From the NCBI GenBank assembly GCA_000002435.2, contig CM018790.1: a DNA stretch of 64,000 nucleotides. One strand, given 5' to 3'. The notes under the pieces are model-generated. The model ran no database searches and had not been told where the DNA came from. It saw nothing but the letters and a program-made list of their open reading frames with translations. A program made the position numbers and the translations under genes. The stretch is from Giardia intestinalis (Eukaryota). This document shows positions 3,565 to 40,334 of the stretch, piece after piece. Position 1 is the stretch's first letter, and every line of letters begins with the position of its first letter.

Positions 3565-3939
3565 TGACTTTGGTAAACCAACTGTGCAGGCACAGACTAG
3601 GATTTGCCAGGCTGCAGATGTACACTGTATCCATTAACAGTGTGGGCGCGTATTTGGTCAGGCTTTAGGTCCTTACTAATAGATGATTTTGCACATTTCC
3701 TAAGGGATATCCATGCAAGGATCAATCAATTAAACTTTGGACAGCCTTCGATACTTTTGTAGTTATAAGATGAGATCGGTATCTGCCAGGAACACCGTAT
3801 ATCACAAATTAACCTCATGAAATAAAAGGCAGATGAAACCATATTGCCATGCAAGAAAGCATATCTTCTAATTTTGATAGACTGCAGAGTATAGTGCAAG
3901 TCATAAAGTGGTTAGCATAGGTTTACTCTATCCACCGGG

Positions 3940-4990: not shown

Positions 4991-5047
4991 GTAGTGCCTT
5001 CTTACATGTGAATTTACAGTTACTGTAGAGTATAGCCTCTAAGAAAA

Positions 5048-17093: not shown

Positions 17094-20000
17094 ATGAGTG
17101 ATTCATATATTCCCGTCCTGTACACGTTGCAAAAGACCCAGAAAAGGAAGAAGTACTTAGATGGATTCATTTGTATAACAGGCCGAACACTTCGAGTCTT
17201 CGATGAAAAAAAGCGTTTCTTAGACTCTTACACCATAACTACACGGACTACTGTTGATGAAGACTTCCTTGAGCTTTCAAAGTGCCTTTTACAACTTGAA
17301 GATGAGCATCGAGAGCTTTTACACTCTGCTGCTTCTGCTTCGACGCCCGCCCATTCGCATCGTTCACCTCATCCAGTTCAATCTATATCAAAGCCGTCAA
17401 CAGCAACACGTGTCTCCCATAAGACTCGCCCCACTTGCGCTGCACCCCCTGATATGAAGACTAGTTCATCGCAAATGAACAATTCTTTATCGGTGAAACC
17501 AAAGTTTGATGAAGCAAGTATGTCCATTGAGATACCTCCTAAACCTTCCAAGACTGTCCTGACTGACCAATCTGCTCATCTCCATACTTTTCTTTCTGCA
17601 ATCAAGTCACTTATCTTCTGTTCTGGAAAGGTTACCTTCACACCAGTACGTGAGCTTTTGTCATCATTGATTTTTCAGCCCATCTCCTGCGATCTAGCCG
17701 CTCAATACATATCAACAGATAACTCGTGTGCACGCATACTTTATTATTCATTGGTGGCCACGTGGGCTGAGCTTTTGCTTCCTTTGCTGCAGAGCCTTGG
17801 ACAGGGTGGAGACACTCAACCAAAGAGCAACTCTTACAACATCTCCACTTACAAGAATGCAGTAGTTATGCGACGTGCTAATACTGCCAAAGCTCGACGT
17901 TTACAACTCTCTGAGGCAGAGCGCTTGGTCAAGATGAGGCAACTTGATTCCGTCACCCTTAAGCAGCTCCGAGCAGATGCCTCCTCAAATGTTGAGCGAT
18001 CGGACACATGGAAGTTATCTGCTGGTGAAGCCATTGCATACGCAAAAGCAGATCTTTTTGTGCTCGTGCCCCAATCTTGTTTTGTAAAGTTAAAGGATGG
18101 TAGCCGTGCTTCTTCTGGGTCAAGCTATACATGTTATTTTTTCACCGCTGACACTTATCAACCTACAGCTGAGGAGTGTCAAAATGAGCTTTTCATGGTA
18201 CCGTTAAGTGATGTGGGACATTGGCTTTCTAAACCAGACTCACGGGGAAGCAATTTCGCTAAGGACTATGATAGCTTCGGTGCTGTCCTCGAGAAAGTTG
18301 TGGTATTCCACTATGAAGGTTTTCAAATATCTTACACACTTTTAGATACTCTTAATACTGCATTTAGGACTATAAATGAAAACATTGAATTGTCACCTTA
18401 TTCTAGATGGATGCGTGACTCATTTCTTCGCTTTCTACACGCTTCCCACGGTCCCAATTGGAAAGAACTTCGACTCCTTCACGCCCATCTTTCATTTAAT
18501 AATTACTTTAAGTCTGAATTAGACAGTGACGTGATTAGTATAACCGATACTCCGTCTAAGGATTTATTTGCGGAGATAGTAGGTCACAGTAACTATAAGC
18601 AAAAGCCATACTTTACAAGTCTAAATCAGTTTCAACGTGAGGCTTTTGATCTTGTTATTTCTAGATTAACGGGGAAAGATGTTACTGGAGCGTTTATTGA
18701 CGATACAGGGTATTGTAGTTCTCACCTTTATTTGCTTCGTGGGGTATTTGGTAGTGGAAAATCTCGAGTCCTAACGGCGCTTCTCCTGCTGCTCCTAGAG
18801 GCCCTTCCGGAGGCCACGGACTCTTGGGTCTTCAGGCCGCGCATCCTCGTCGTTGCGAACACAAACGTGGCGGTCGACAACCTCCTCCGGCGCCTCGCCT
18901 CTGCAGCTGCAGGGCTTTCTATTGGAGAGCTTCTTCCAAAGGTCGTCTCCCGGGTTGGGTCGGGGATCACGGCCCCCGAGCTCCACGTTTTCGGCGAGCC
19001 TCTGATCGCCTTCGGCGAGCGCCTCGTCATCTTCACGACCTTTGCGTCTCTCAACCGCCTAACAGAGCTGGTCTCCGACTGCGACTACTTCCCCCTCGTG
19101 ATCGTTGACGAAGCCAGCCAGGTAACGGAGCCCCTCCTCCTTTGCGGGCTTGCAGCCCTGCGTTATCAGGTCGATCTGATGCTCTTGGCGGGAGACAACA
19201 TGCAGCTTCCCCCGGTCGCCGCCACAGCCACCCTAGGAGCATCGACCTTCGAGCGCCTTATCGGCCTAACAGAGGGCAAACATTCTCCGCGGCTTTGTCC
19301 GGCGACGACGCTGTGGGCGCAGTACCGCTGCTGCCGCCCCGTGGCAGATCTAGCAGGCGCCCTATTCTACGGCAGACGCGTTTGCACTATGGGCACAGAA
19401 CATCCGCCTGTCGTCAAGGGCCTCCCGCTCTTATCCTCTGTTCACCTTGGAAGCTCTTTTGACCGAACGGTCCGCGGGAGCAGAGAGAATAGTACAGAAG
19501 CCAAGGCAATTGTTCGCCTGGTCACAGCCCTGGTGCTGGACCACAAGGTACCTCCCTCCGAGATCGGAATTATTACTCCATTCCGGGCACAATCAAGTTA
19601 TCTCGAGGGGCTGTTGCGGCGGGCCCTCTCTGTCTTTAAGACAGTGCATGATGAGAAGAGCCTATTAGATGCAGACGGCGCGGAGCCTTCTGAGCTGACA
19701 GGGGTTGGCAGGGCAGCTGAGGAAGTTCAAAGACAAAATTCCCTAACAGACAATACCATCTTTCGATCATGCAGGACTGGCGCTGTATCCCCCCAAGCTA
19801 TACCTAAACTCTCAACTGTATCTGCAGCCACCGTCGATTCTTTCCAAGGAAGCGAGAAATTGGTGATCATCGTGAGCCTAGTGCAAGCGACGGATGGACA
19901 CTTTATTCGTGAGCCAGAAAGATCCGAGCATATCAATTTCCCTAATAGAGTCAACGTGGCCATCACACGTGCGGTTAGCCATCTAATTGTCTTTCAGAGC

Positions 20001-20420
20001 TATCAATTTAGCGGCGATAATCTATCATCCTATTTGAAGAAACTGACATTGAAAGACCTGTCTCTTAGTAGCACTGTGAGCCCCTGGACTAAACTGCTCG
20101 CATATACAACTGATATCGGCCAGTGCTTCATAGGCATAGCTTCTCTCCTTGAACAACTTGGGGTTAAAGAAGTAGAACAGGGTTTACCATTGTTCTCTGA
20201 ACTGACTAGCGCTCAAAAGGAGGATCCACCCACTGTCAACGAGCCACTCAGAAAGACGGCTGCAGTTACCAGTCCGATTAAGTTTGCATCTTCTCTTTCT
20301 GATCAGCTGCTGATAGACATGATTATAGAATGTGCAAGGGACAGGTTTATAGAAGACAAATGTGTTCTTTCCCAGGCAAAAAGCACAGAGCTGCTGCAAA
20401 TTTTAGGGGGCGAATGGTAA
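17094..20420 (+). CDS. Upf1-like superfamily-1 RNA/DNA helicase (1108 aa) with a ~550-aa N-terminal extension.
   Basis: Walker A GVFGSGKS, motif II DEASQ, VDSFQGSEKLVIIVS, and motif VI RVNVAITRA. The 3' 1660 bp lie inside the inverted-repeat arm. Confidence 0.8.
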   Translation: MSDSYIPVLYTLQKTQKRKKYLDGFICITGRTLRVFDEKKRFLDSYTITTRTTVDEDFLELSKCLLQLEDEHRELLHSAASASTPAHSHRSPHPVQSISKPSTATRVSHKTRPTCAAPPDMKTSSSQMNNSLSVKPKFDEASMSIEIPPKPSKTVLTDQSAHLHTFLSAIKSLIFCSGKVTFTPVRELLSSLIFQPISCDLAAQYISTDNSCARILYYSLVATWAELLLPLLQSLGQGGDTQPKSNSYNISTYKNAVVMRRANTAKARRLQLSEAERLVKMRQLDSVTLKQLRADASSNVERSDTWKLSAGEAIAYAKADLFVLVPQSCFVKLKDGSRASSGSSYTCYFFTADTYQPTAEECQNELFMVPLSDVGHWLSKPDSRGSNFAKDYDSFGAVLEKVVVFHYEGFQISYTLLDTLNTAFRTINENIELSPYSRWMRDSFLRFLHASHGPNWKELRLLHAHLSFNNYFKSELDSDVISITDTPSKDLFAEIVGHSNYKQKPYFTSLNQFQREAFDLVISRLTGKDVTGAFIDDTGYCSSHLYLLRGVFGSGKSRVLTALLLLLLEALPEATDSWVFRPRILVVANTNVAVDNLLRRLASAAAGLSIGELLPKVVSRVGSGITAPELHVFGEPLIAFGERLVIFTTFASLNRLTELVSDCDYFPLVIVDEASQVTEPLLLCGLAALRYQVDLMLLAGDNMQLPPVAATATLGASTFERLIGLTEGKHSPRLCPATTLWAQYRCCRPVADLAGALFYGRRVCTMGTEHPPVVKGLPLLSSVHLGSSFDRTVRGSRENSTEAKAIVRLVTALVLDHKVPPSEIGIITPFRAQSSYLEGLLRRALSVFKTVHDEKSLLDADGAEPSELTGVGRAAEEVQRQNSLTDNTIFRSCRTGAVSPQAIPKLSTVSAATVDSFQGSEKLVIIVSLVQATDGHFIREPERSEHINFPNRVNVAITRAVSHLIVFQSYQFSGDNLSSYLKKLTLKDLSLSSTVSPWTKLLAYTTDIGQCFIGIASLLEQLGVKEVEQGLPLFSELTSAQKEDPPTVNEPLRKTAAVTSPIKFASSLSDQLLIDMIIECARDRFIEDKCVLSQAKSTELLQILGGEW

Positions 20421-20970
20421 TCAGGAATGGACACACGAACAACTCGTTCTATTAGAGGTTTATTATATTGGTTCTTCCACTACATGTGGTTGTTTCAAGC
20501 TGTGTGATATACTCCGTACAATGGCTACCCGTCGTGTTACCTGTGTATTGCAAATAGGTTGTATAAAAATTCTGCGCTTGCACATAATGCATAAACCATG
20601 TTAGTAGTTGTTTCCTTGCTTCACAATGACACTATCGGAAATCGTCTATCTATCCTTAGCCCCAGTACATGGTCTAACTTGCTTCTCTGTATCTTGTTTA
20701 GTAATACCAAGAGCTTCTACGATGATTGGTAGCGTGAGTCCTTATGTCGATATAAGTATATATGCTTGAGAAACCGTCATCAGCTCACCAAGAGGCTAGG
20801 AAAGCTCCAGCGCTTCAACCTAAGCGGTCATCGCCTAATGGAGCCGTCCTACCTGCAAGATAAGGGTTGGAGCAGACGTTACAAATTATGTATAGCGGAA
20901 AACAAGAGCTGTGACCTACTGCTCCTTATGACTAATATTTAATATGATTTTCATATGTCTGCACCGCCGT

Positions 20971-21042
20971 GCGGTCATAGTACAGTGGCTAGTATGCGTG
21001 ACTGTCACTCACGTGACCCGGGTTCGATTCCCGGTGACCGCG
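20971..21042 (+). tRNA. tRNA-Asp (anticodon GTC).
   Basis: Manual fold of the 72-nt sequence. Acceptor stem is 7 bp (gcggtca/tgaccgc). It has U8, A14 and a GG in the D-loop. Anticodon stem is cgtga/tcacg with loop cTGTCac (U33, anticodon GTC, A37). The T-arm is ccggg-ttcgatt-cccgg, and the sequence matches an A-box and a B-box (GGTTCGATTCC). Confidence 0.88.
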
Positions 21043-21484
21043 GCTTTGCTTGGTGCCGGCGCAGACGTCTTCACCGGGTCTTTGGGACCGAGGCTGGTTG
21101 CTCCAGGCTGACGCGGAGCCGTCACTTCTTCCTGGTGTACAAGCGTGTCAATCGATGATTATCCTCTCGCTTGAGCACCCATTTGTCATTCTGGTTTGCC
21201 ATCCAGCACTTGAAGTGATGGGTTAATGAGTTTTCAAACAACATACTTCATTGATCATTGCTAAGAATAGCATATCTTTTTGTATGAAGATAACCGTTCC
21301 TCTGTAGATCTTCAATCTAACAGTTAAAGATGTACTATAAAGACGAGCCTACAAGGTTTCTCATAAGAACATATCTAACAGTCCTTGTTCCTTGCAATAT
21401 GTTGTCTTATGATGTAGTTCACTGATAGTAGATACATTTCACCATCCGATCTTGTCACTTGATAAGTTTAGTACGAATGATTCC

Positions 21485-24400
21485 CCCTATTTACTCTCCA
21501 CTTCACCGGGGTAGGGCTGTCGCCTACTACCTGAGTGATCTCCCATGCGAGCCGCCATCCTGGGCAAGCTTCTCACCCATGCATTAGCTGAGATCCGGAA
21601 TCCGAGAGTCGGATGTCCTCGGATCCCGGCGGAAGAACTTCTATGCCCCCCTCCCCTGGAAGCTGCCGCTCCTCGCGGTGCCTCCAGGGTTCCCCCTTCC
21701 TCTGGCTCGTCGGGGTCAACCATCGCCTGATAGCTATTGAGCACCTGCTGTCCCGGGCCTGCCGTCGGTCACAGCAGCCTGGCCTCCACGTGGCCCTGGT
21801 GCTCTACGACGAGGATCGCACGCCACGACCTCGGGTGTCTACCCCGTTCCTCGGGTGCCTCTTTGTCTCCCCATGACGTGGATCATCGACCCTATTGTCG
21901 GAGGTGCGCTCCCCATACGCCTCCATCTTGGAGTCATAGTACGCGTTCGTGGATGCCGATGGAGTACTCCCATGCGTTGTGTCGGGGAGAGGTCCGGCCC
22001 TCTGCTCACGGATCGCAGGGCGCTTTTGCAGGTGGTCCGTCACCCAGCACGAGATCATGTCAGCGCTCACCCTGTGCAGTGCGTCTGGCTCAGTGACGTG
22101 TGGGCTGGTCCATCTGCACCGCACAGCACACTTGGGGGAATGATTCGGTCTGTCGAGGCATCGTCCAAAGCATCAGAAGCGATCAGGACCGGTTCGCCGC
22201 TTGGTTGTCCCGCTCGGCAGCCGGCACCCGTCTACTCGAGGGTGTCAGGCACTGCCAGCTGCTGCGGCAGACGCCTGGCGGGTGGCCCAGGTCACCGCTC
22301 TTCGGTGTGGGCAGGATCAGTCTGCCTCTGCCAACCAGACACCCCAGGGGCCCCATCTCTTGTCGAGGGATTCACATGGGTCACGTGTGGGTCCATCCCG
22401 GCCAGTGGGCAGTGATTGGTGCCATCACTAGTTTCGGCCCTCGATTGCCCTGGGAGCTCCTTCGAGACTAGTTAGAAAGGAGGCCTCCTGTCCCTCTGTG
22501 CTCCTATACCCAGTGCTGACCGTCGAGCTATAGCGTTTCGCCAGGCCTGTCGCCTCTGTGACTATCCCCGTCGTGTCACTGTCGTCACTATGGAAGCTGA
22601 GTGTGTCGTCGACATGGGCAGTGAGCGGGGCATCTCCTTCAGCTCCTGGTGAGCAGGTTCTGTCTCCCGCAGCACAGAAGAATGCTCAGGACCCCGAGGG
22701 ACCGAGCCCAGGGGTGCAGCGTGGCGCAGCCGGAGGAAGGCCTCGACGCAGCTCCTCGGGACTACCTTGTGGAGCGAATCATGATCGTCCATTGATTGTG
22801 GTCGCCCTGTCTCATTCTTGAGGAAGGACCAGACGGAACCGTACAGAGCACGCGTCCCATCCTATGGGTCGCGCTGATAATCTCGCTGAAGGCCTGTTTA
22901 GGGGCCCCGGAACGCCTGCACCCGGATGGGGGCTTGCCAGCGCAGGTCCAGGCCAGAGGGCCCGGGGACTTCAAGCCCCGTGGACTAGTCGCCCTGGCCG
23001 TCTCTTCGTCGGTGATCTGGTAGGGCCGTCCGTGCTCTCCGATGGCTGAGAGGGTCCGTATCCCTCAGGAGCCAGGCCGTCCTGATCCGGCCCTCTGGAT
23101 AGCAAGGTGCTGGTCGTCGGTGGCGCTGTCAGGGTGCAGCTCCCCCTCGAGGCGAGGCAGAGGCTGCAGGCCGGGCAGTAGGATGGTGAATGCCGCTCCT
23201 CCGCTTCCCCGCTGTGTGAGCGAGGCACGTCTCCTCGGCTCTCACCTGGGGCTCTGCGGGGTGCTAGGTACCTTCCCGTGAGCACGTTCGCACGATGGGT
23301 GCTGAAGGGGATGTCCTTCTCTATTCCTATTACTCCACTCAGTGGCGCCCTGCATCCGGTGTCTGTGCTGCATACGTCTGGACGGCCTCACCGCGGAGGG
23401 TCTTCGCTCAGGACAGGCATGTGCTCTTCCGCTCCTACTAGTTCAACGTTCGCCTGGTGCCACTCCAGCGTAGGGCGCTCCTCTCCATCAGGTTCCTAAG
23501 GTCCTCGTTCTTGGTGTGATACCTGATCTCTCCCCCGTGAGGGGTAGGGTTCACGGTGCACTGGTGTGTGTTCGGAGCGACGCCTCCCTTTTAGAGTTCT
23601 GCAGGTTACACGACCCTCTGGGGACAACCAGCGACTGGGACCCCTGTTTGAGGCAAGGGCTGACCTGGCTCCACCGGGCTGCGAGCAACTCAAGGGCGCT
23701 CTGGTGTTGCTGGTCTCTCAACCGCACAGACTTGGCCTGTCCTGGCAGATAGTTGGGGTCGTCCCTGAGCGCCTCCGAGGAATCTGGGAAGCGCTCCGGT
23801 CCGATGCTTTCTGTCCAGAGCATCGCGACGGGCAACGGTGAGGGCCCGCGTGGGACACCGCACTTGGGCGACAAGGCTCGGTGTGCGTGTGCTGGCACCG
23901 TCTGTCGGTCGCAAAGCTGCAGAAGGAGCAGCAAGAGGAGCCCAAAGCGGGAGAGGGTTCTCCAGACGTGCTGCTCGAGACCCTTTAGAAGTCGAAAGAG
24001 ACATGGCAGGAGACGCAGAAGTGGTCGAGTGGCTCTTCGTGCTGTGGATCGCGTAGGAGGTCCCCAAGGGTGCAGTCTCTTAGTGAACCCGGCGTTCTTG
24101 AGCCAGTTCATGTAGTCAGCGAGTGACCCCTTCAGGGCTAGGTGGTCTCCTAGAGAAACGGTCATTGAGAGCCCTGCCACCATGCAACCGTTCTCTGGCA
24201 CAGGGATGTTCGTTGGGGGGAGGAGAATGTGAGAGCTTCCCTGCTCTCATCTCCTTGCTCTTTCGTTCATCCTACTGGGCGCTTTCTTGGCGCTTCGCTC
24301 CAGAGTCCTATGGACCTTCCTCGGTGGCACCTTCATGGGAGCAGTCGCGGGTCTGTTATTTGTTAAAGGCTGGACGTCGGGGCTATCGGCTCCTTCGTCT

Positions 24401-24575
24401 GGGCTTCTTCTTCCGCCGGAGCTGGACGGCGCCCGATTCTCGGACTCTGGGTTCAGACATCGAACAGGTAAATGATCGAAGACCCCCCTGGTGTAGAAAC
24501 TCGCATAGAATTTGCTCGGACGGCAGCTAACAAACCAATCTCGGTGGACAGAGGTATGTTCATAGGGCGTTTGCC
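21485..24575. repeat. GC-rich ~3.1-kb dispersed-repeat element of unknown class (left-arm copy).
   Basis: Abrupt rise in GC. Many overlapping stop-poor pseudo-ORFs on both strands with no domain. Part of the element recurs at 3940..4990. Confidence 0.65.
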
Positions 24576-24669
24576 TTATAGTCATTATCTGGTCATGTTA
24601 CTTAATAAGGTGCTAGCCCTTCATTTTCAGCTGTGTCATTTGTGCTCAACGCTCTTGCTAACCAACTGA

Positions 24670-27590
24670 CTATGTTGGTAGTTTCACTTAAGGTTAGCCA
24701 GATCGCATAAGCATTAACAAAGAAATGCGTACCAGGAAAAGCAAGCTTAGATAAATGCTAAGCATGTGCCAGTGTTATAGACACAGACTTACGCTACGTG
24801 AGTATAATCGAGTGGTAACAGTCTTGTTAATACGGCATCCACCAGCTCCAAAATTATACTTGTAAGAATGAGATATCTATTCAGTGAGTAATATTTATTT
24901 TTCATACGGAAGAGAATGCAATAACTTTACTAGGACAATGAAAATATGTCTGAAGATGCAAGGGCGCGATTGGCAGAATAGAAGAAGTATATCTATATAA
25001 GACTGCCAACACACCCTTAAACATCCATGCCCTATAGAGATCAAGCAATCCTTTGCTGCTTGCAATGAAGTGGCTGGAACTGCGGTCAGTGACACCAGAC
25101 ATAAAAACGTACCTAGTTGTAGAGGACATAATCAGCTTATTAATAAGGTCATCGTGAACGTAAGTAAAATAGATAAAGCAGCTGTACACAAGTTCTATAA
25201 ATAAATGATGCAGATTAGAAGCGGCTACATATCGATGAAAGAGATAGTTGTCTGAATATGTCAGCAAGCCAAATGTACAGGGCAGTAATAAGTGTCATGA
25301 ATGTAAGAATGCAAATGATGGAGTGGGGAGCATCTGGATGTATAACCCCTAATTAACTCATTAATAAGCGCATAAATAAGATACAACAGGCTTTAATCTA
25401 CAAGCAGTGAAACATCTAGTATGGCAGATAAACTGAAGCTTATAGCGAGACCTAACTCCGTGAAAGTAGTGCACATGGTAAGAAGCAGTGCAGTCTATAG
25501 AATAATGTAACCAGAAACAGCACAATTGATGACATAGAATGTACCTTTCTAGTAATCTATTAAAAGCAGAGTCCCTAAAGGTTCCGTTTATATAGCTAGA
25601 ACAAGACCCAATGATGATTATCGTGTACATTGATATTATAACACCATCTGGCTCATCTGAGTGTTAGTTAGTTGATAGTAAAATGCTCTATCAGCAAATA
25701 CACATGCGAAGTGTAACGTATATCATATCATCGGTGAGTATCGATAGGATAGCAGTCCTAATTATAGAACTAAGGAGTGGCTGATATGGAATACTAGCAA
25801 GTGCGTCACAGGATTGTAATTTGTTACTAGATCAGATAAAGATTGATAGGCCAGCGTATGCAGAAGGGCGCTCTGCATGATGATAGGATGATATGAGAAG
25901 TTCTATGCGAATAATAACCACTCCCTTTTATGTTTGCCATTAGAACCTAGTCAAGGAGTGACAGGCTTCTGGAGTAATTGGCCCTTGCACTCTCTGCAGG
26001 GCATGCTGGGTGATAAGGAGCTTTTTGTGACGTTCAAAGAACTCATCCGGTTATACCTACTTTTCCAGAACCACAACTACTAACTAATAAAAAGGGCCTT
26101 GCGTTTAGTCTTACAATAGGGGATCTTATGCATATAAATTCAGTCTTAGATAGCTAGCTTGATGAATTGATATATGGCAAAACAGTACAAAATTAGCCTG
26201 TTTTTAGATTACTCCACTTCTTGTGAAAAGGCTGATCGATGGTCTGGACAAAGTAATACAAACGTCCCTAAGTTTAAGCCATCATTTGTCCATTATCTCC
26301 TAACGCTCCCATTGTAACTAGGTGACTAAAAGCAGAATCTTCATTATATTGCTATAGATTCATCGCAAGGGATTCGCTAACTTTCTTGCTGGACAAGAGC
26401 AGACTCACGCCTCTCCACTGACTCTTTTCCACCATGAACTGATAATAACGTCCTCTCTCTGAGACGTGTGAAGCAGATACTATAGACGCTCAGCCAAGAT
26501 ACTAATCACTATAGTTGTAGATGCATCAAAACTTATGGTAGAGACGGGAATATTATTCACATAGACCCTAAACGCTATACGAATGCCTTGTAAGTTAGTA
26601 TTTTGCGGAAACAGATAAGCGTAGCTTCCAGATCCAAAGTTACGCGCGGACAAGTTATGCTCCCAACACCTGAACTCTAGCATCCATTCCTATGAGTTTT
26701 TCTTCCCAATAACGTCTACCTTATGGGCTCAAAGCTGCAAGTAGTGTCCTTGTCATTGAAAGAAAGATGAACCGGGATAATATAGAAGATCGTGCCATAG
26801 AATACAGCCTCCGAGGATTCGTGTGCCGACGCTCTATAATGCTTGCAGATAACGACAACATCCTTAATGACGGGATACTCCATTGTAAACCTAAAACTAA
26901 AACATAAGATAATATTAGAACAGCAACTTCAAGAAAGACAGTTCAATATGTTCATCTGACTATAAGAAGCTTGGTGATCACCTGCAAGACTGATATGCGG
27001 AATGAGTATGGACACTCAATTCTACTCTTGCAGCTAAATATAACCACCAATCTACTGCCGAGTTCATGCTTCTCAATGAGGTTGTAATTCGATGCATGAC
27101 CGCCATATACCTTCGTTGTCAATGCAGAATAAAACTGTAGGGCTGGCATAGAAATTTATTATGTGTTGTAGAACAGCAAAGTTGGGAGGCGCAGCAGCGA
27201 TACTATATACTGTTAGATAACGTTACAGTAAAACTTCAAAGCAGCTTCTTCTAAGGAAAGAAGACACACAGAATACCGCTGAGAGCATTACTATACCACT
27301 TGGGTTAAGTTTAGTTAGATAGATACAGTCACGTTGTTGGCTCCACTTAGGAAGAGGATAGAGAATTCTGCTAGCAAGCTTGCGAAGCCTATGCTGCTGA
27401 AGGGAGCTTCCAACAACTTGCAGAGCCGCCCCAAGAACGGCCGGAAGGAGATTGGAAGCGACTAGCCACAGTGATCTTGGCGGGCCAAATTTACTTCAGT
27501 TGGGTAGGATGTGGAGGATTCTTTTAGCAGTGCAGATGTCCATAAGAGGTAGCTACAAAGCTGAGGATAAAGCAAGAACCCCAAATAGTA
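24670..27590. other. AT-rich ~2.9-kb non-coding tract (left-arm copy), lying between the GC-rich element and the HCMP 3' fragment.
   Basis: No ORF longer than 121 aa on any frame. Mirrored exactly at 33165..36085. Confidence 0.5.
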
Positions 27591-27591
27591 T

Positions 27592-27834
27592 TCAATTCAA
27601 CGGTGTAGTGATAGATGCAGTAGTGGGAATACGCTTCCGGCTAAGAGCAACGTGCTTCGCCCCATAGGGCTGCGTGCGTCTATACAGGAACCACCACAGG
27701 AGAAAGCCGACCACCGACCCAACGAGGAGAACCGCAGCCACGGACACTCCGGCTATCATGGCTGTCTTCCTTGTCGAGCTCGGGGCTGGAGCTGGAGCTG
27801 GAGTCGGGATGATGCTCGGGAGCGCATCAAAGGA
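27592..27834 (-). pseudogene. Inverted duplicate of the HCMP 3' end (C-terminal TM helix plus cytoplasmic tail) lacking the gene body. It has 3 Pro-Ala units, where the intact gene has 4.
   Basis: Translation YSFDALPSIIPTPAPAPAPSSTRKTAMIAGVSVAAVLLVGSVVGFLLWWFLYRRTQPYGAKHVALSRKRIPTTASITTPLN equals the HCMP C-terminus apart from a 6-bp indel. Upstream sequence is unrelated. Confidence 0.7.
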
Positions 27835-32600: not shown

Positions 32601-33163
32601 GCGAGTCGGGCATCCTTCAAGAGTGCTCGATCGCAAACTGCGCCGAATGCACGGCCGACGCCTGCGTGACATGCAGGCTGGGGTATGTGAGCGTGAACGG
32701 CCAGTGCCAGAAATGCGCCCAGGGCTGCGTCACCTGCACTGCCCCGGACAATCCACAGATGTGCACCCTCTGTGACACAGGGTACTACCAGTCGACAACT
32801 GGATCGGCGTTCACATGCACAGCATGCGGTGCGGACAACAACGGCATGAAAGGGGTCGACGGATGCACTTACTGCATGCCTCCTGAGGGCAAGGTCGGAT
32901 CCGTCCTCTGCTATTCCTTTGATGCGCTCCCGAGCATCATCCCGACTCCGGCTCCAGCCCCAGCCCCAGCCCCGAGCTCGACAAGGAAGACAGCCATGAT
33001 AGCCGGAGTGTCCGTGGCTGCGGTTCTCCTCGTTGGGTCGGTGGTCGGCTTTCTCCTGTGGTGGTTCCTGTATAGACGCACGCAGCCCTATGGGGCGAAG
33101 CACGTTGCTCTTAGCCGGAAGCGTATTCCCACTACTGCATCTATCACTACACCGTTGAATTGA
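29660..33163 (+). CDS. High-cysteine membrane protein (HCMP; non-VSP, no CRGKA tail), 1167 aa. It has a signal peptide, three ~280-aa Cys-rich modules, a Pro-Ala repeat, a C-terminal TM helix and a short basic tail.
   Basis: N-terminal MIILLGILFASQAAKC, with dozens of CXXC and three GGCY motifs. C-terminal MIAGVSVAAVLLVGSVVGFLLWWF is followed by YRRTQ... ATG at 29660 preceded by TATATTTAAA. The last ~250 bp lie in the right repeat arm. Confidence 0.9.
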   Translation: MIILLGILFASQAAKCTHSYQVNDCAEDHCEEINGHELCTECKNDGYIPFNGYCLKYDSGRYSSCKNADGSAITNQKKCGMCTGSMHLYKGGCYSCGNFYPGNLICKECDRGVCTSCTSNFFKNPAASQTVDSCVRCDDTTGVSGYVGVTDCLRCSLPSNSKVAKCRTCKLSTHKPNLEGNACYKCRTPDCYRCKADNACEVCGNFKYLQGTTKPYCVSACGVGFYSVSVPSLQCKKCSATCRACEGPNERDCTACRESENYFLAATNGVGKCISCGDERGYSGWMGVANCKTCYPPNGPGVATCNKCERGYSLVDGKCKADCDDTSGQCAAKGCHVTIGDKSFCSLCNTGYAPVDGICTTVQPDNPSGCVANNGQCNKCGAGYFLYYGGCYSGSTEVHKTICLEVGTESDRVGLCKTCADGFQNKDGVCILCWDPDCKVCSKDTTKCEVCRDGYYDPEFCKRCHSSCKTCMGESSKQCLTCPSNQYLRPIYDNAGMCVESTNCGYGMYGDSSSYKCVSCSAGCLTCKAAGDDKCTSCPIRTHFLDGSESGAGRCIECGNTTNAKGIDGCRECTMESDSVKCLVCKAGYTLVNGKCQSHCQDSNCAAGSCVVGIGENLYCSLCKTDGHAPVDGICTDVTSAHPSGCVTGVGSDSARSCLQCGAGYFLYMGGCYQENKEPGKSVCTWVGIVGSVNKNNYGLGLCNACAAGYENQDGICRPCTTVNCERCRMDDQRDVCTHCMVGYVLDQAGTCTTKTTGSCTVPDCAECADGRKCRRCGPGFFLTSVGTCVGNCRNIPGYYALDATGEAPARCALCEIPNCKECGAGKLCAVCSDGYFSDNGVCTPCDSTCATCVAKGPSSCVSCPSGYAVTSESGVGECKKPCTPSADGCKRCDASIDGASYCSVCSVQTAFPLNGKCVGLSARAGSACVSVVDGACTSCADGYFLLSGGCYQVDTYPGRTVCHAEERGVCTKGAHGKMVSESGILQECSIANCAECTADACVTCRLGYVSVNGQCQKCAQGCVTCTAPDNPQMCTLCDTGYYQSTTGSAFTCTACGADNNGMKGVDGCTYCMPPEGKVGSVLCYSFDALPSIIPTPAPAPAPAPSSTRKTAMIAGVSVAAVLLVGSVVGFLLWWFLYRRTQPYGAKHVALSRKRIPTTASITTPLN
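30000..32510 (+). repeat. Three tandem intragenic ~840-bp modules inside the HCMP gene, each ending in C(x)AGYFLxxGGCY.
   Basis: Protein-level repeats KCGAGYFLYYGGCY (~30800), LQCGAGYFLYMGGCY (~31640) and CADGYFLLSGGCY (~32480), with similar upstream CSLC/CSVC blocks. Confidence 0.5.
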
Positions 33164-33164
33164 A

Positions 33165-36085
33165 TACTATTTGGGGTTCTTGCTTTATCCTCAGCTTTGT
33201 AGCTACCTCTTATGGACATCTGCACTGCTAAAAGAATCCTCCACATCCTACCCAACTGAAGTAAATTTGGCCCGCCAAGATCACTGTGGCTAGTCGCTTC
33301 CAATCTCCTTCCGGCCGTTCTTGGGGCGGCTCTGCAAGTTGTTGGAAGCTCCCTTCAGCAGCATAGGCTTCGCAAGCTTGCTAGCAGAATTCTCTATCCT
33401 CTTCCTAAGTGGAGCCAACAACGTGACTGTATCTATCTAACTAAACTTAACCCAAGTGGTATAGTAATGCTCTCAGCGGTATTCTGTGTGTCTTCTTTCC
33501 TTAGAAGAAGCTGCTTTGAAGTTTTACTGTAACGTTATCTAACAGTATATAGTATCGCTGCTGCGCCTCCCAACTTTGCTGTTCTACAACACATAATAAA
33601 TTTCTATGCCAGCCCTACAGTTTTATTCTGCATTGACAACGAAGGTATATGGCGGTCATGCATCGAATTACAACCTCATTGAGAAGCATGAACTCGGCAG
33701 TAGATTGGTGGTTATATTTAGCTGCAAGAGTAGAATTGAGTGTCCATACTCATTCCGCATATCAGTCTTGCAGGTGATCACCAAGCTTCTTATAGTCAGA
33801 TGAACATATTGAACTGTCTTTCTTGAAGTTGCTGTTCTAATATTATCTTATGTTTTAGTTTTAGGTTTACAATGGAGTATCCCGTCATTAAGGATGTTGT
33901 CGTTATCTGCAAGCATTATAGAGCGTCGGCACACGAATCCTCGGAGGCTGTATTCTATGGCACGATCTTCTATATTATCCCGGTTCATCTTTCTTTCAAT
34001 GACAAGGACACTACTTGCAGCTTTGAGCCCATAAGGTAGACGTTATTGGGAAGAAAAACTCATAGGAATGGATGCTAGAGTTCAGGTGTTGGGAGCATAA
34101 CTTGTCCGCGCGTAACTTTGGATCTGGAAGCTACGCTTATCTGTTTCCGCAAAATACTAACTTACAAGGCATTCGTATAGCGTTTAGGGTCTATGTGAAT
34201 AATATTCCCGTCTCTACCATAAGTTTTGATGCATCTACAACTATAGTGATTAGTATCTTGGCTGAGCGTCTATAGTATCTGCTTCACACGTCTCAGAGAG
34301 AGGACGTTATTATCAGTTCATGGTGGAAAAGAGTCAGTGGAGAGGCGTGAGTCTGCTCTTGTCCAGCAAGAAAGTTAGCGAATCCCTTGCGATGAATCTA
34401 TAGCAATATAATGAAGATTCTGCTTTTAGTCACCTAGTTACAATGGGAGCGTTAGGAGATAATGGACAAATGATGGCTTAAACTTAGGGACGTTTGTATT
34501 ACTTTGTCCAGACCATCGATCAGCCTTTTCACAAGAAGTGGAGTAATCTAAAAACAGGCTAATTTTGTACTGTTTTGCCATATATCAATTCATCAAGCTA
34601 GCTATCTAAGACTGAATTTATATGCATAAGATCCCCTATTGTAAGACTAAACGCAAGGCCCTTTTTATTAGTTAGTAGTTGTGGTTCTGGAAAAGTAGGT
34701 ATAACCGGATGAGTTCTTTGAACGTCACAAAAAGCTCCTTATCACCCAGCATGCCCTGCAGAGAGTGCAAGGGCCAATTACTCCAGAAGCCTGTCACTCC
34801 TTGACTAGGTTCTAATGGCAAACATAAAAGGGAGTGGTTATTATTCGCATAGAACTTCTCATATCATCCTATCATCATGCAGAGCGCCCTTCTGCATACG
34901 CTGGCCTATCAATCTTTATCTGATCTAGTAACAAATTACAATCCTGTGACGCACTTGCTAGTATTCCATATCAGCCACTCCTTAGTTCTATAATTAGGAC
35001 TGCTATCCTATCGATACTCACCGATGATATGATATACGTTACACTTCGCATGTGTATTTGCTGATAGAGCATTTTACTATCAACTAACTAACACTCAGAT
35101 GAGCCAGATGGTGTTATAATATCAATGTACACGATAATCATCATTGGGTCTTGTTCTAGCTATATAAACGGAACCTTTAGGGACTCTGCTTTTAATAGAT
35201 TACTAGAAAGGTACATTCTATGTCATCAATTGTGCTGTTTCTGGTTACATTATTCTATAGACTGCACTGCTTCTTACCATGTGCACTACTTTCACGGAGT
35301 TAGGTCTCGCTATAAGCTTCAGTTTATCTGCCATACTAGATGTTTCACTGCTTGTAGATTAAAGCCTGTTGTATCTTATTTATGCGCTTATTAATGAGTT
35401 AATTAGGGGTTATACATCCAGATGCTCCCCACTCCATCATTTGCATTCTTACATTCATGACACTTATTACTGCCCTGTACATTTGGCTTGCTGACATATT
35501 CAGACAACTATCTCTTTCATCGATATGTAGCCGCTTCTAATCTGCATCATTTATTTATAGAACTTGTGTACAGCTGCTTTATCTATTTTACTTACGTTCA
35601 CGATGACCTTATTAATAAGCTGATTATGTCCTCTACAACTAGGTACGTTTTTATGTCTGGTGTCACTGACCGCAGTTCCAGCCACTTCATTGCAAGCAGC
35701 AAAGGATTGCTTGATCTCTATAGGGCATGGATGTTTAAGGGTGTGTTGGCAGTCTTATATAGATATACTTCTTCTATTCTGCCAATCGCGCCCTTGCATC
35801 TTCAGACATATTTTCATTGTCCTAGTAAAGTTATTGCATTCTCTTCCGTATGAAAAATAAATATTACTCACTGAATAGATATCTCATTCTTACAAGTATA
35901 ATTTTGGAGCTGGTGGATGCCGTATTAACAAGACTGTTACCACTCGATTATACTCACGTAGCGTAAGTCTGTGTCTATAACACTGGCACATGCTTAGCAT
36001 TTATCTAAGCTTGCTTTTCCTGGTACGCATTTCTTTGTTAATGCTTATGCGATCTGGCTAACCTTAAGTGAAACTACCAACATAG
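33165..36085. other. AT-rich non-coding tract, right-arm copy.
   Basis: Mirror of 24670..27590. Confidence 0.5.
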
Positions 36086-36179
36086 TCAGTTGGTTAGCAA
36101 GAGCGTTGAGCACAAATGACACAGCTGAAAATGAAGGGCTAGCACCTTATTAAGTAACATGACCAGATAATGACTATAA

Positions 36180-39100
36180 GGCAAACGCCCTATGAACATA
36201 CCTCTGTCCACCGAGATTGGTTTGTTAGCTGCCGTCCGAGCAAATTCTATGCGAGTTTCTACACCAGGGGGGTCTTCGATCATTTACCTGTTCGATGTCT
36301 GAACCCAGAGTCCGAGAATCGGGCGCCGTCCAGCTCCGGCGGAAGAAGAAGCCCAGACGAAGGAGCCGATAGCCCCGACGTCCAGCCTTTAACAAATAAC
36401 AGACCCGCGACTGCTCCCATGAAGGTGCCACCGAGGAAGGTCCATAGGACTCTGGAGCGAAGCGCCAAGAAAGCGCCCAGTAGGATGAACGAAAGAGCAA
36501 GGAGATGAGAGCAGGGAAGCTCTCACATTCTCCTCCCCCCAACGAACATCCCTGTGCCAGAGAACGGTTGCATGGTGGCAGGGCTCTCAATGACCGTTTC
36601 TCTAGGAGACCACCTAGCCCTGAAGGGGTCACTCGCTGACTACATGAACTGGCTCAAGAACGCCGGGTTCACTAAGAGACTGCACCCTTGGGGACCTCCT
36701 ACGCGATCCACAGCACGAAGAGCCACTCGACCACTTCTGCGTCTCCTGCCATGTCTCTTTCGACTTCTAAAGGGTCTCGAGCAGCACGTCTGGAGAACCC
36801 TCTCCCGCTTTGGGCTCCTCTTGCTGCTCCTTCTGCAGCTTTGCGACCGACAGACGGTGCCAGCACACGCACACCGAGCCTTGTCGCCCAAGTGCGGTGT
36901 CCCACGCGGGCCCTCACCGTTGCCCGTCGCGATGCTCTGGACAGAAAGCATCGGACCGGAGCGCTTCCCAGATTCCTCGGAGGCGCTCAGGGACGACCCC
37001 AACTATCTGCCAGGACAGGCCAAGTCTGTGCGGTTGAGAGACCAGCAACACCAGAGCGCCCTTGAGTTGCTCGCAGCCCGGTGGAGCCAGGTCAGCCCTT
37101 GCCTCAAACAGGGGTCCCAGTCGCTGGTTGTCCCCAGAGGGTCGTGTAACCTGCAGAACTCTAAAAGGGAGGCGTCGCTCCGAACACACACCAGTGCACC
37201 GTGAACCCTACCCCTCACGGGGGAGAGATCAGGTATCACACCAAGAACGAGGACCTTAGGAACCTGATGGAGAGGAGCGCCCTACGCTGGAGTGGCACCA
37301 GGCGAACGTTGAACTAGTAGGAGCGGAAGAGCACATGCCTGTCCTGAGCGAAGACCCTCCGCGGTGAGGCCGTCCAGACGTATGCAGCACAGACACCGGA
37401 TGCAGGGCGCCACTGAGTGGAGTAATAGGAATAGAGAAGGACATCCCCTTCAGCACCCATCGTGCGAACGTGCTCACGGGAAGGTACCTAGCACCCCGCA
37501 GAGCCCCAGGTGAGAGCCGAGGAGACGTGCCTCGCTCACACAGCGGGGAAGCGGAGGAGCGGCATTCACCATCCTACTGCCCGGCCTGCAGCCTCTGCCT
37601 CGCCTCGAGGGGGAGCTGCACCCTGACAGCGCCACCGACGACCAGCACCTTGCTATCCAGAGGGCCGGATCAGGACGGCCTGGCTCCTGAGGGATACGGA
37701 CCCTCTCAGCCATCGGAGAGCACGGACGGCCCTACCAGATCACCGACGAAGAGACGGCCAGGGCGACTAGTCCACGGGGCTTGAAGTCCCCGGGCCCTCT
37801 GGCCTGGACCTGCGCTGGCAAGCCCCCATCCGGGTGCAGGCGTTCCGGGGCCCCTAAACAGGCCTTCAGCGAGATTATCAGCGCGACCCATAGGATGGGA
37901 CGCGTGCTCTGTACGGTTCCGTCTGGTCCTTCCTCAAGAATGAGACAGGGCGACCACAATCAATGGACGATCATGATTCGCTCCACAAGGTAGTCCCGAG
38001 GAGCTGCGTCGAGGCCTTCCTCCGGCTGCGCCACGCTGCACCCCTGGGCTCGGTCCCTCGGGGTCCTGAGCATTCTTCTGTGCTGCGGGAGACAGAACCT
38101 GCTCACCAGGAGCTGAAGGAGATGCCCCGCTCACTGCCCATGTCGACGACACACTCAGCTTCCATAGTGACGACAGTGACACGACGGGGATAGTCACAGA
38201 GGCGACAGGCCTGGCGAAACGCTATAGCTCGACGGTCAGCACTGGGTATAGGAGCACAGAGGGACAGGAGGCCTCCTTTCTAACTAGTCTCGAAGGAGCT
38301 CCCAGGGCAATCGAGGGCCGAAACTAGTGATGGCACCAATCACTGCCCACTGGCCGGGATGGACCCACACGTGACCCATGTGAATCCCTCGACAAGAGAT
38401 GGGGCCCCTGGGGTGTCTGGTTGGCAGAGGCAGACTGATCCTGCCCACACCGAAGAGCGGTGACCTGGGCCACCCGCCAGGCGTCTGCCGCAGCAGCTGG
38501 CAGTGCCTGACACCCTCGAGTAGACGGGTGCCGGCTGCCGAGCGGGACAACCAAGCGGCGAACCGGTCCTGATCGCTTCTGATGCTTTGGACGACGCCTC
38601 GACAGACCGAATCATTCCCCCAAGCGTGCTGTGCGGTGCAGATGGACCAGCCCACACGTCACTGAGCCAGACGCACTGCACAGGGTGAGCGCTGACATGA
38701 TCTCGTGCTGGGTGACGGACCACCTGCAAAAGCGCCCTGCGATCCGTGAGCAGAGGGCCGGACCTCTCCCCGACACAACGCATGGGAGTACTCCATCGGC
38801 ATCCACGAACGCGTACTATGACTCCAAGATGGAGGCGTATGGGGAGCGCACCTCCGACAATAGGGTCGATGATCCACGTCATGGGGAGACAAAGAGGCAC
38901 CCGAGGAACGGGGTAGACACCCGAGGTCGTGGCGTGCGATCCTCGTCGTAGAGCACCAGGGCCACGTGGAGGCCAGGCTGCTGTGACCGACGGCAGGCCC
39001 GGGACAGCAGGTGCTCAATAGCTATCAGGCGATGGTTGACCCCGACGAGCCAGAGGAAGGGGGAACCCTGGAGGCACCGCGAGGAGCGGCAGCTTCCAGG

Positions 39101-39270
39101 GGAGGGGGGCATAGAAGTTCTTCCGCCGGGATCCGAGGACATCCGACTCTCGGATTCCGGATCTCAGCTAATGCATGGGTGAGAAGCTTGCCCAGGATGG
39201 CGGCTCGCATGGGAGATCACTCAGGTAGTAGGCGACAGCCCTACCCCGGTGAAGTGGAGAGTAAATAGGG
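36180..39270. repeat. GC-rich dispersed-repeat element, right-arm copy.
   Basis: Mirror of 21485..24575. Same orientation as the partial copy at 3940..4990. Confidence 0.65.
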
Positions 39271-39712
39271 GGAATCATTCGTACTAAACTTATCAAGTGA
39301 CAAGATCGGATGGTGAAATGTATCTACTATCAGTGAACTACATCATAAGACAACATATTGCAAGGAACAAGGACTGTTAGATATGTTCTTATGAGAAACC
39401 TTGTAGGCTCGTCTTTATAGTACATCTTTAACTGTTAGATTGAAGATCTACAGAGGAACGGTTATCTTCATACAAAAAGATATGCTATTCTTAGCAATGA
39501 TCAATGAAGTATGTTGTTTGAAAACTCATTAACCCATCACTTCAAGTGCTGGATGGCAAACCAGAATGACAAATGGGTGCTCAAGCGAGAGGATAATCAT
39601 CGATTGACACGCTTGTACACCAGGAAGAAGTGACGGCTCCGCGTCAGCCTGGAGCAACCAGCCTCGGTCCCAAAGACCCGGTGAAGACGTCTGCGCCGGC
39701 ACCAAGCAAAGC

Positions 39713-39784
39713 CGCGGTCACCGGGAATCGAACCCGGGTCACGTGAGTGACAGTCACGCATACTAGCCACTGTACTATGACCGC
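39713..39784 (-). tRNA. tRNA-Asp (GTC), second copy within the right repeat arm.
   Basis: Exact reverse complement of 20971..21042. Confidence 0.88.
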
Positions 39785-40334
39785 ACGGCGGTGCAGACAT
39801 ATGAAAATCATATTAAATATTAGTCATAAGGAGCAGTAGGTCACAGCTCTTGTTTTCCGCTATACATAATTTGTAACGTCTGCTCCAACCCTTATCTTGC
39901 AGGTAGGACGGCTCCATTAGGCGATGACCGCTTAGGTTGAAGCGCTGGAGCTTTCCTAGCCTCTTGGTGAGCTGATGACGGTTTCTCAAGCATATATACT
40001 TATATCGACATAAGGACTCACGCTACCAATCATCGTAGAAGCTCTTGGTATTACTAAACAAGATACAGAGAAGCAAGTTAGACCATGTACTGGGGCTAAG
40101 GATAGATAGACGATTTCCGATAGTGTCATTGTGAAGCAAGGAAACAACTACTAACATGGTTTATGCATTATGTGCAAGCGCAGAATTTTTATACAACCTA
40201 TTTGCAATACACAGGTAACACGACGGGTAGCCATTGTACGGAGTATATCACACAGCTTGAAACAACCACATGTAGTGGAAGAACCAATATAATAAACCTC
40301 TAATAGAACGAGTTGTTCGTGTGTCCATTCCTGA

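What the first reader, a model, noticed from the sequence alone, without database searches (positions are those of the whole stretch)
21485..24575. Unclassified ~3.1-kb GC-rich dispersed-repeat family: two full copies in the IR arms and a truncated, mosaic third copy at 3940..4990
The element is sharply bounded by composition (>60% GC against ~45%) and carries only short overlapping pseudo-ORFs on both strands. I found no RT (YxDD), integrase or transposase motif in any frame, and no rRNA landmarks.

The 1-kb copy at 3940..4990 (upstream of gene 5048) has a 615-bp core (4258..4872) almost identical to 38533..39147, but its flanks are only ~70% similar. Within the core it carries the 'A' variant of the right arm and the 'I' variant of the left arm at the two SNP sites. 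That is a mosaic pattern expected from gene conversion among family members.

It could be a dead retroelement (GilD-like), a satellite-like or subtelomere-derived block, or a structural non-coding RNA gene family.
Basis: seen in the sequence. Interest (0 to 1): 0.6.

Follow-up and report, generated by a model that had tools for sequence, protein, structure and literature searches.

The report
Relic GC-rich repeat family in Giardia
The GC-rich 3.1-kb block is a real, non-coding, dispersed repeat of Giardia intestinalis, bounded by long imperfect inverted repeats; it is most likely the dead remains of a mobile element whose copies keep overwriting one another by gene conversion, which makes it notable for Giardia genome annotation but not a new kind of biology.

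Summary
The window is Giardia intestinalis WB C6. A 61% GC, ORF-free block sits at 21485-24567, mirrored at 36188-39270 inside a 9,047-bp inverted duplication. A ~1.07-kb relative lies at 3922-4989, and its 615-bp core is nearly identical to the arm copies and mosaic at the only two SNPs.

The family is dispersed. ORF-based searches found members at three or more further WB loci, six DH (A2) loci and other assemblages. The copy-3 site is also occupied in P15 (assemblage E).

New here:
- Every copy with readable ends is bounded by ~155-200-nt imperfect terminal inverted repeats ending in AGAGTAAA.
- There are long (~3.08 kb) and short (~1.1 kb) forms, and the short forms share one junction, flanked in the long form by a 9-nt direct repeat.

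I found no RT, transposase, VSP or other protein signal, no codon periodicity, no Rfam hit and no covariation.

Orthologous WB/DH copies are mosaics of 97% and 49-65% segments within 95-99% flanks, so ectopic gene conversion is rampant.

Best reading: a relic non-autonomous mobile-element family. It may be the RT-less part of the "dead" GilD/Genie 2 element, but membership could not be tested. Interest is moderate to low.

The parts
36188..39270 (+). Long-form element, right IR arm (3,083 bp, 61.5% GC). The '+' strand is called 'sense' here only by convention: it is the A>T strand and ends in AGAGTAAA.
21485..24567 (-). The same long-form element in the left IR arm. It is a mirror copy that differs at 2 bases.
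3922..4989 (+). Short-form family member ('copy 3', 63.9% GC), just upstream (58 nt) of gene GL50803_004245. The orthologous site is occupied in DH (A2) and P15 (E).
4258..4872 (+). 615-bp recent gene-conversion tract, equal to 38533-39147 and 21608-22222. It has one difference from each arm.
36188..36350 (+). 5' terminal inverted repeat of the long form (mirror at about 24405-24567). It is an imperfect inverted copy of the 3' end.
39105..39270 (+). 3' terminal inverted repeat (mirror at 21485-21650). It contains ACTCAGGTAGTAGGC at 39219-39233, a 13/15 match to the VSP extended poly(A) motif, and the terminal AGAGTAAA at 39258-39265.
3922..4010 (+). 5' TIR remnant of copy 3. It starts with TTTACTCT, the reverse complement of AGAGTAAA, and has an internal ~110-nt deletion relative to the TIRs of L006 and L018.
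36367..38299 (+). Segment specific to the long form (~1.93 kb; mirror at 22456-24388) and absent from short forms. It is bracketed by the 9-nt direct repeat CGAAGGAGC at 36358-36366 and 38291-38299.
18761..27807 (.). Left arm of the 9,047-bp inverted duplication that carries the element.
32948..41994 (.). Right arm of the inverted duplication. It is absent downstream of the HCMP gene in P15.

Best explanation
The block is one member of an old, non-coding, GC-rich dispersed repeat family of the Giardia duodenalis complex. Its copies are discrete units bounded by ~155-200-nt imperfect terminal inverted repeats (5'-...TTTACTCT ... AGAGTAAA...-3'). I read them as relics of a mobile element that no longer encodes, or never encoded, its own enzyme.

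Shown:
1. Units with the same termini occur at many unlinked loci.
2. They come in two size classes, and the short class shares one internal junction at three loci. It was therefore copied as a unit after a single 1.9-kb deletion, or before a single 1.9-kb insertion, between 9-nt direct repeats.
3. The copies exchange sequence by ectopic gene conversion faster than they accumulate point changes.
4. The two 'full copies' in the window are one insertion duplicated by a 9-kb inverted segmental duplication that arose after the split from assemblage E.

Inferred:
- The mobilising enzyme came from a lost or unsampled autonomous partner. That partner was either the 'dead' non-LTR element GilD/Genie 2 or an unknown transposase.
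- The high GC is inherited from the element and/or maintained by GC-biased conversion.
- Today the copies mainly act as recombination substrates in gene-poor, VSP/HCMP-rich, synteny-breaking regions.
For: Organism: exact protein matches identify G. intestinalis WB C6.

Dispersal:
- A spurious ORF from the core finds 30 ORFs; every named one is from Giardia.
- These map to loci other than the window, including GL50803_30984, GL50803_0027657 on another chromosome, and six DHA2 loci.
- Fetched copies L006, L007, L009, L010, L018 and L019 align to element positions 2155-3049, 1853-2880, 1129-2959, 2426-3087 and 2126-2894 at 76-82%.

Terminal inverted repeats:
- The 5' ends of WB-long, copy 3, L006 and L018 align with the reverse complements of the 3' ends over ~170-200 nt.
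- Significance against shuffles is 0-3 of 500 for three of the six pairs tested; the other three, including the WB long copy and the DH long copy against their own 3' ends, were not significant (27-116 of 500).
- The 28-nt 5' motif is found only at the three element starts, with 0 expected by chance.

Shared short-form junction and the 9-nt repeat CGAAGGAGC at both edges of the long-specific segment.

Non-coding:
- No Pfam hit in 6 frames of the WB copy, the three sense-strand frames of the DH and L009 long copies, or 6 frames of two L006 regions.
- No PDB hit.
- Period-3 z=1.0, against 7-49 for neighbouring genes.
- Substitutions show no codon-phase bias.

Gene conversion:
- WB versus DH identity is 95-99% in the flanks but 49-91%, with indels and interspersed 97% segments, inside the element.
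- Four-way comparison and the SNP mosaic agree.

Age: the P15 ortholog of copy 3 sits at the same site.

Setting: copies lie next to VSP/HCMP genes and at synteny or assembly breaks. RT, VSP and HCMP loci form GC-rich islands at synteny breaks (PMC3091692).
Against: - No target-site duplication could be identified.
- No autonomous copy, RT or transposase was found.
- There is no poly(A) tail.
- The TIRs are only ~65-70% alike within an element. They are no better within an element than between elements, which is unusually poor for a recently active DNA transposon.
- Only about a dozen copies could be sampled, because the whole genome cannot be searched with these tools.
- Conservation along the core is significantly uneven. 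That could reflect some constraint rather than pure decay.
Confidence: 0.65

Rival explanations
1. The family is GilD/Genie 2 itself: a dead non-LTR retrotransposon whose RT/endonuclease ORF has decayed beyond recognition in these copies, or whose unusually long 3' UTR is all that is left.
For: Published remarks on GilD:
[quoted passage not shown] Observed here:
- The same genomic setting.
- 3'-biased coverage of copies.
- An internal deletion at a 9-nt repeat.
- About ten degenerate copies.

From my own memory, not checked: the abstract of Burke et al. 2002 says that all Genie 2 copies carry inverted repeats of up to 172 bp, which would fit.
Against: - No RT or endonuclease signal in any frame of the WB long copy or in the sense-strand frames of the DH and L009 long copies. 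The same method detects a 31-residue VSP fragment in the same inverted repeat.
- The only YxDD-like motif lies in a WB-specific 24-nt insertion.
- There is no poly(A) tail.
- The 5' end is an inverted copy of the 3' end, which target-primed reverse transcription does not normally produce.
- GilD was discovered through its RT similarity.
Confidence: 0.3
2. It is a family of non-coding RNA genes or dsRNA-producing loci. Transcripts ending at the terminal AGTAAA signals fold into a panhandle through the inverted ends and feed Giardia's Dicer/Argonaute pathway, for example in VSP control.
For: - Poly(A)-signal-like AGAGTAAA faces outward at both ends, and a VSP-type extended poly(A) motif lies in the TIR.
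- Predicted 5'-3' end pairing is -32 to -54 kcal/mol, against -14 to -19 for shuffles.
- Conserved blocks exist within the core.
- Copies have been retained at the same site since the A/E split in a compact genome.
- Copies lie close to VSP/HCMP genes.
Against: - No Rfam match even at E<=1.
- RNAalifold covariation term is +3.18, with only 8 of 125 pairs showing any compensatory change.
- TIR complementarity is not maintained within elements.
- The interior is replaced wholesale between A1 and A2 isolates.
- The ts/tv ratio matches the genomic baseline.
- No expression data are available.
Confidence: 0.08
3. It is a decayed protein-coding gene family, such as pseudo-VSP/HCMP genes or another GC-rich Giardia family.
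For: - VSP, HCMP and RT genes form GC-rich islands (PMC3091692).
- 208 pseudo-VSPs are annotated in WB (PMC7000408).
- A VSP-like poly(A) motif lies near the 3' end.
- Long open frames of 130-300 codons occur on the T-rich strand in many copies.
Against: - No Pfam, PDB or large-database protein homolog other than the family's own ORFs.
- No period-3 signal and no codon-phase bias in substitutions.
- Indels between copies are not multiples of three.
- There is no homology to VSP 3' ends beyond the 13-nt motif.
- The open frames are expected on a strand with 16% A.
Confidence: 0.05
4. It is not mobile at all. A GC-rich recombination-prone sequence was spread only by segmental duplication and ectopic recombination, and its inverted ends are a by-product.
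For: - The window itself shows a 9-kb inverted segmental duplication carrying the element.
- 6.9% of the WB genome is duplicated (PMC7000408).
- No TSDs were found.
Against: - Flanks of different copies are unrelated right up to the same terminal nucleotides.
- Short-form copies with an identical junction sit beside unrelated genes.
Confidence: 0.1

Closest known systems
GilD (Arkhipova & Morrison 2001) = Genie 2 (Burke et al. 2002), the 'dead' non-LTR retrotransposon of Giardia
   Same: Degenerate, ORF-less copies number roughly ten per genome. They have internal deletions at short repeats, sit interstitially in gene-poor regions beside VSP genes, and are GC-rich. A long non-coding 3' portion is reported for GilD. 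By my recollection only, Genie 2 copies carry inverted repeats of up to 172 bp.
   Different: No RT or endonuclease remnant is detectable in any sampled copy, and there is no poly(A) tail. Sequence identity to the published consensus could not be checked.
GilM/GilT (Genie 1), the telomeric non-LTR retrotransposons of Giardia
   Same: Same host, and GC/G-rich composition (PMC10088271).
   Different: Those elements are ~5.5 kb, encode RT and form head-to-tail telomeric arrays (PMC7000408). Here there is no RT and no tandem array, and the position is internal. Published Genie 1 primers do not match at <=3 mismatches.
Non-autonomous TIR DNA transposons (Ds-like deletion derivatives, long MITE-like elements)
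   Same: Terminal inverted repeats, no coding capacity, size classes related by internal deletion, and dispersed single copies beside genes.
   Different: No TSD was recognised. The TIRs are long but only 65-70% matched. No transposase is known in Giardia. Copy number is very low.
Girep-1 transcribed intergenic repeat (PMC1950533)
   Same: A non-coding Giardia repeat linked conceptually to VSP genes and dsRNA.
   Different: Girep-1 is a tandem array of 222-nt units with VSP-complementary segments. Its primers do not match here, and there are no tandem repeats here.

Membership tests
GilD / Genie 2 | Recognisable reverse-transcriptase (and REL-type endonuclease) remnants | tested here: not met
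   Pfam gave no hit at E<=1 for the six X-masked frames of the WB long copy, the three sense-strand frames of the DH long copy and the L009 long copy, and six frames of two L006 regions. PDB phmmer gave no RT hit. The HVDD motif is not ancestral.
GilD / Genie 2 | Only degenerate copies, in low copy number | tested here: met
   Stops occur at random frequency. At least 5 WB loci and at least 6 DH loci were found.
GilD / Genie 2 | Internal deletions mediated by microhomology | tested here: inconclusive
   The long-specific 1.93 kb is bracketed by CGAAGGAGC on both sides. This could equally be the TSD of a nested insertion.
GilD / Genie 2 | Location in gene-poor regions next to VSP genes (PMC2861651) | tested here: met
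   In the window the element lies in arms holding ~6 kb of non-coding DNA beside an HCMP/VSP-like gene. VSP genes are called in the L006, L007 and L010 loci, from ~0.5 to ~5 kb from the copy.
GilD / Genie 2 | Nucleotide identity to the deposited consensus | not testable with these tools
   No eukaryotic nucleotide database or Repbase/Dfam is available, and the original papers are not held.
non-LTR retrotransposon (general) | 3' poly(A) or simple-repeat tail, and variable 5' truncation | tested here: not met
   Copies end at AGAGTAAA followed by unrelated, non-A-rich flanks. Their 5' ends are inverted copies of the 3' end rather than random truncations.
TIR (class II) non-autonomous transposon | Terminal inverted repeats shared by all members | tested here: met
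   The TIRs are imperfect, at ~65-70%.
TIR (class II) non-autonomous transposon | Target-site duplication of fixed length | tested here: inconclusive
   None is evident at the WB long copy, copy 3, L006 or L010. The elements are old, and no empty site is available.
TIR (class II) non-autonomous transposon | Autonomous partner encoding a transposase with the same TIRs | not testable with these tools
   The whole Giardia genome cannot be scanned. None was seen in the ~150 kb of loci fetched.
Structured ncRNA family | Rfam match or covariation-supported structure | tested here: not met
VSP/HCMP pseudogene | VSP-domain (CXXC-rich, CRGKA) remnants | tested here: not met
   No PF03302 hit in any frame, although a 31-residue VSP fragment at 27595-27900 is detected at E=6.5e-8. 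There is no homology to VSP 3' ends.

The most novel reading that the evidence does not exclude
The family is the relic of a class II-like (terminal-inverted-repeat, cut-and-paste or related) transposon with Ds-like deletion derivatives. It would be the first DNA-transposon-type element in Giardia, a genome reported to contain only three non-LTR retrotransposon families and no transposase. It would be unrelated to GilD/Genie 2.
Probability: 0.2. Interest if true: 0.6.

Novelty: new member of a known kind. Interest (0 to 1): 0.35.

Why it matters
For Giardia genomics this explains several things:
- Several kilobase-scale GC-rich, gene-free islands that are unannotated in the reference.
- At least one surviving and several deprecated 'hypothetical protein' models that are probably spurious ORFs on these repeats.
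- Why short-read assemblies of every assemblage break at these points.

It also gives a clean, datable example of ectopic and inter-arm gene conversion in an organism whose sexual and recombinational biology is debated. The conversion tract is 615 bp, with a three-way SNP mosaic. Orthologous copies are rewritten between A1 and A2 while their flanks stay 95-99% identical.

If the family proved unrelated to GilD/Genie 2, it would add a TIR-bounded element class to a genome thought to hold only non-LTR retroelements.

Tried and rejected
- Concatenating all 27 ORF segments (>=75 aa) into one 3,255-aa query for the search for homologous proteins returned nothing.
- The phage collection gave no match.
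- A metagenome scan with the conserved 20-mer GCGTACTATRACTCCAARAT gave 4 chance hits with no homology.
- RT hunt: Pfam on X-masked frames of four regions and PDB phmmer were negative. An 'AHVDDT' motif looked RT-like but sits in a WB-only 24-nt insertion. 'LADYMNWLKNAGF' is interrupted by stops in DH.
- The VSP pseudogene idea was rejected: only a 13/15 poly(A)-motif match, with no wider homology.
- The structured-RNA idea was rejected.
- A high transition bias looked like a hint of RNA stems, but it equals the genomic baseline.
- A 25-nt direct repeat flanking copy 3 (3870-3894 / 5011-5035) is not adjacent to the termini and is about what chance gives, so it is not taken as a TSD.
- Genie 1 and Girep-1 primers from PMC1950533 do not match.
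- The original GilD and Genie papers could not be read.
- The bacterial promoter/terminator scan is irrelevant to Giardia.
Full report
**Source and setting**

Large ORFs in the window include a Giardia VSP-domain protein. Exact-sequence look-ups place the window on a 1,539,535-bp chromosome of Giardia intestinalis WB clone C6 (GL50803_004245, DNA helicase KAE8302236, HCMP VSP-like KAE8302238). No protein in the collection is annotated on the GC-rich block.

**Check of the observation**

The block is 61.4% GC, against 40-44% flanks. It lies in both arms of a 9,047-nt inverted repeat, 18761-27807 / 32948-41994, whose arms differ at five bases. All six frames carry 22-39 stops per 1,030 codons, roughly what base composition predicts.

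Every coding and RNA test was negative:
- No Pfam family is hit at E<=1 in any frame.
- Rfam finds only the duplicated tRNA-Asp genes, even at E<=1.
- Period-3 power is at background (z=1.0, against 7-49 for neighbouring genes).

Within the window the block matches only its mirror copy and 4208-4979. The core 4258-4872 is identical to the arm copies except at the two sites where the arms themselves differ. Copy 3 agrees with the left arm at one site and the right arm at the other. The two 'full copies' are one locus duplicated by the inverted repeat.

**Is it a family?**

A 224-residue open frame from the core found 30 ORFs; every one that carries a name is from Giardia. They include:
- GL50803_30984.
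- GL50803_0027657, which is on a different, 1,485,438-bp chromosome and is still annotated as a hypothetical protein.
- Six DHA2 'hypothetical proteins'.
- ORFs from metagenome assemblies.

Most are 45-80% identical to anything I had fetched, so they represent additional loci. DNA fetched around seven of them, together with orthologous loci reached through neighbouring genes, gave eight further copies. They align to the last 650-1,950 nt of the long copy at 76-82%.

**Anatomy**

All copies with a preserved 3' end stop at ...CCCCGGTGAAGTGGAGAGTAAA, after which the flanks are unrelated.

The 5' ends of the WB long copy, copy 3, L006 and L018 are inverted copies of that same 3' terminal ~155-200 nt. 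Shuffle tests give 0-3 of 500 for three of the six end pairs compared; the other three, including the WB and DH long copies against their own 3' ends, were not significant. A 28-nt 5' motif occurs only at the three element starts in the window, with 0 expected.

The inverted ends are only ~65-70% alike. They are no more complementary within an element than between elements. The imperfection therefore predates dispersal and is not maintained by compensation.

There are two size classes:
- The long form (~3.08 kb) occurs in WB and DH at the IR locus, and partially in L009 and L007.
- The short form (~1.05-1.2 kb) occurs at copy 3, L006 and L018/L019.

The short copies share the same junction between the 5' inverted repeat and element position ~2,100. 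In the long form, the 1.93-kb long-specific segment is bracketed by the 9-nt direct repeat CGAAGGAGC. This means either one repeat-mediated deletion whose product then spread, or one nested insertion.

No target-site duplication and no poly(A) tail were recognisable.

**Coding or RNA function?**

- Substitutions between copies show no codon-phase bias, and indels are not in threes.
- Pfam is silent for the sense-strand frames of the DH and L009 long copies and for all six frames of two L006 regions.
- A PDB sequence search of the most protein-like sense ORF finds no polymerase.
- The one YxDD-like motif lies in a WB-specific 24-nt insertion.
- The method is sensitive enough to detect a 31-residue VSP C-terminus elsewhere in the same arm.
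- RNAalifold on eight copies of the core gives a penalising covariation term and few compensatory pairs.
- The transition bias (3.5-6) equals the genomic WB/DH baseline of 5-10.

Two observations keep a small door open for an RNA-level role:
- Conservation along the core is significantly patchy.
- The ends could pair strongly if co-transcribed (-32 to -54 kcal/mol, against -14 to -19 for shuffles).

The 3' inverted repeat also carries ACTCAGGTAGTAGGC. This is a 13/15 match to the VSP extended polyadenylation motif, which sits right after CRGKA* in the true VSP genes of L007 and L010. There is no further homology to VSP 3' ends.

**Evolutionary behaviour**

At the orthologous IR locus, WB and DH are 95-99% identical in coding and AT-rich flanks. 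Inside the element the picture is a mosaic: segments at 97% alternate with segments at 49-65% that are full of indels, while the element ends stay at 92-96%.

At the copy-3 locus the flanks differ by 0.4-0.8%. The DH core, however, is only ~80% identical to the WB sequence that WB copy 3 shares with the arms. The WB core resembles neither DH copy throughout.

Ectopic gene conversion among several family members therefore outpaces point mutation. The near-identity of the two 9-kb arms fits the same process.

The copy-3 site is occupied by a homologous, 63-80% GC element in P15 (assemblage E). Contigs of two further assemblages end just upstream of the same gene. The insertion is therefore older than the A/E split.

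In P15 the HCMP gene is followed by a different gene, with no right arm. The inverted duplication is therefore younger.

**Comparison with known elements**

Published statements say the following about GilD:
- It consists only of dead copies.
- It lies in gene-poor regions next to VSP genes.
- It is disrupted by microhomology-mediated deletions (PMC2861651).
- Giardia's retrotransposons have unusually long 3' UTRs (PMC5537684).

RT remnants, VSP genes and HCMP genes form GC-rich islands at synteny breaks (PMC3091692; PMC7000408). All of this fits.

From memory only, Genie 2 copies are said to carry inverted repeats of up to 172 bp, which would also fit.

I therefore do not file the family under GilD/Genie 2. 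I estimate about 30-45% that a direct nucleotide comparison would show it to be the RT-less portion or a non-autonomous derivative of that element.

It is not GilM/GilT or Girep-1: the published primers do not match, there are no tandem arrays, and there is no RT. Formally its anatomy is that of a non-autonomous TIR element, but no TSD or transposase was found.

**Verdict**

This is a real, correctly described feature. Its most likely nature is an ancient, non-coding, inverted-repeat-bounded mobile-element relic family that now evolves by gene conversion (confidence 0.65). It is worth annotating and worth one BLAST against GilD/Genie 2, but it is not categorically new.

Noticed in passing
window 18761-27807 and 32948-41994: The 9,047-bp inverted duplication has only 5 mismatches. 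Three of them cluster in the innermost 20 nt and two lie in the 615-bp conversion core. It duplicates tRNA-Asp (20970-21044 +, 39711-39785 -), a 3' fragment of the DNA-helicase gene (40335-41888, 517 aa) and the last ~70 codons of the HCMP gene (27592-27900). The right arm is absent in P15.
   Followed up: partly
window 24600-27590 (mirror 33165-36180): A ~3-kb, 40% GC stretch has no ORF above 121 aa and no Pfam hit. It lies next to the GC-rich element, so each arm holds ~6 kb of non-coding DNA, which is very unusual for the compact Giardia genome. It is 95-99% conserved between WB and DH.
   Followed up: partly
window 39219-39233 (+) and 21522-21536 (-); L007 664; L010 9422: The element's terminal repeat contains ACTCAGGTAGTAGGC. 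This is a 13/15 match to the VSP extended polyadenylation motif ACTYAGRTAGTRAAY found directly after the stop codon of true VSP genes. The two mismatches are A-to-G changes.
   Followed up: partly
other WB and DH loci (P0031 = GL50803_0027657 / KAE8301811.1; P0027 = GL50803_30984; DHA2_150205, 151666, 152276, 152867, 153228, 154570): These annotated 'hypothetical proteins' are open frames on the T-rich strand of family members and are probably spurious gene models. One of them survives in the current WB annotation.
   Followed up: partly
L009, L011, L012, L013, L018, L019; DH contig AHGT01000008: Short-read contigs from several assemblages end inside or right beside family copies or the IR boundary. 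These repeats are therefore systematic assembly breakpoints.
   Followed up: no
L011 1-800 (P15 ortholog of copy 3): The assemblage E version of the element is 63-80% GC, clearly higher than the 64% of the assemblage A copy. Meanwhile P15 genes are on average less GC-rich than WB genes (PMC3091692).
   Followed up: no
L006 1-549 versus 2195-2741: A 97% inverted repeat carries VSP-type poly(A) motifs at positions 41 and 2687. It encloses ~1.6 kb of 60-64% GC sequence with no Pfam hit. This may be one of the divergent VSP-pair arrangements described by Xu et al. 2020.
   Followed up: partly
window flanks versus DH (L002, L008): A1/A2 divergence is 0.4-0.8% around copy 3 but 2.7-2.9% around the IR/HCMP locus. 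Transitions outnumber transversions 5-10 fold in both regions.
   Followed up: no
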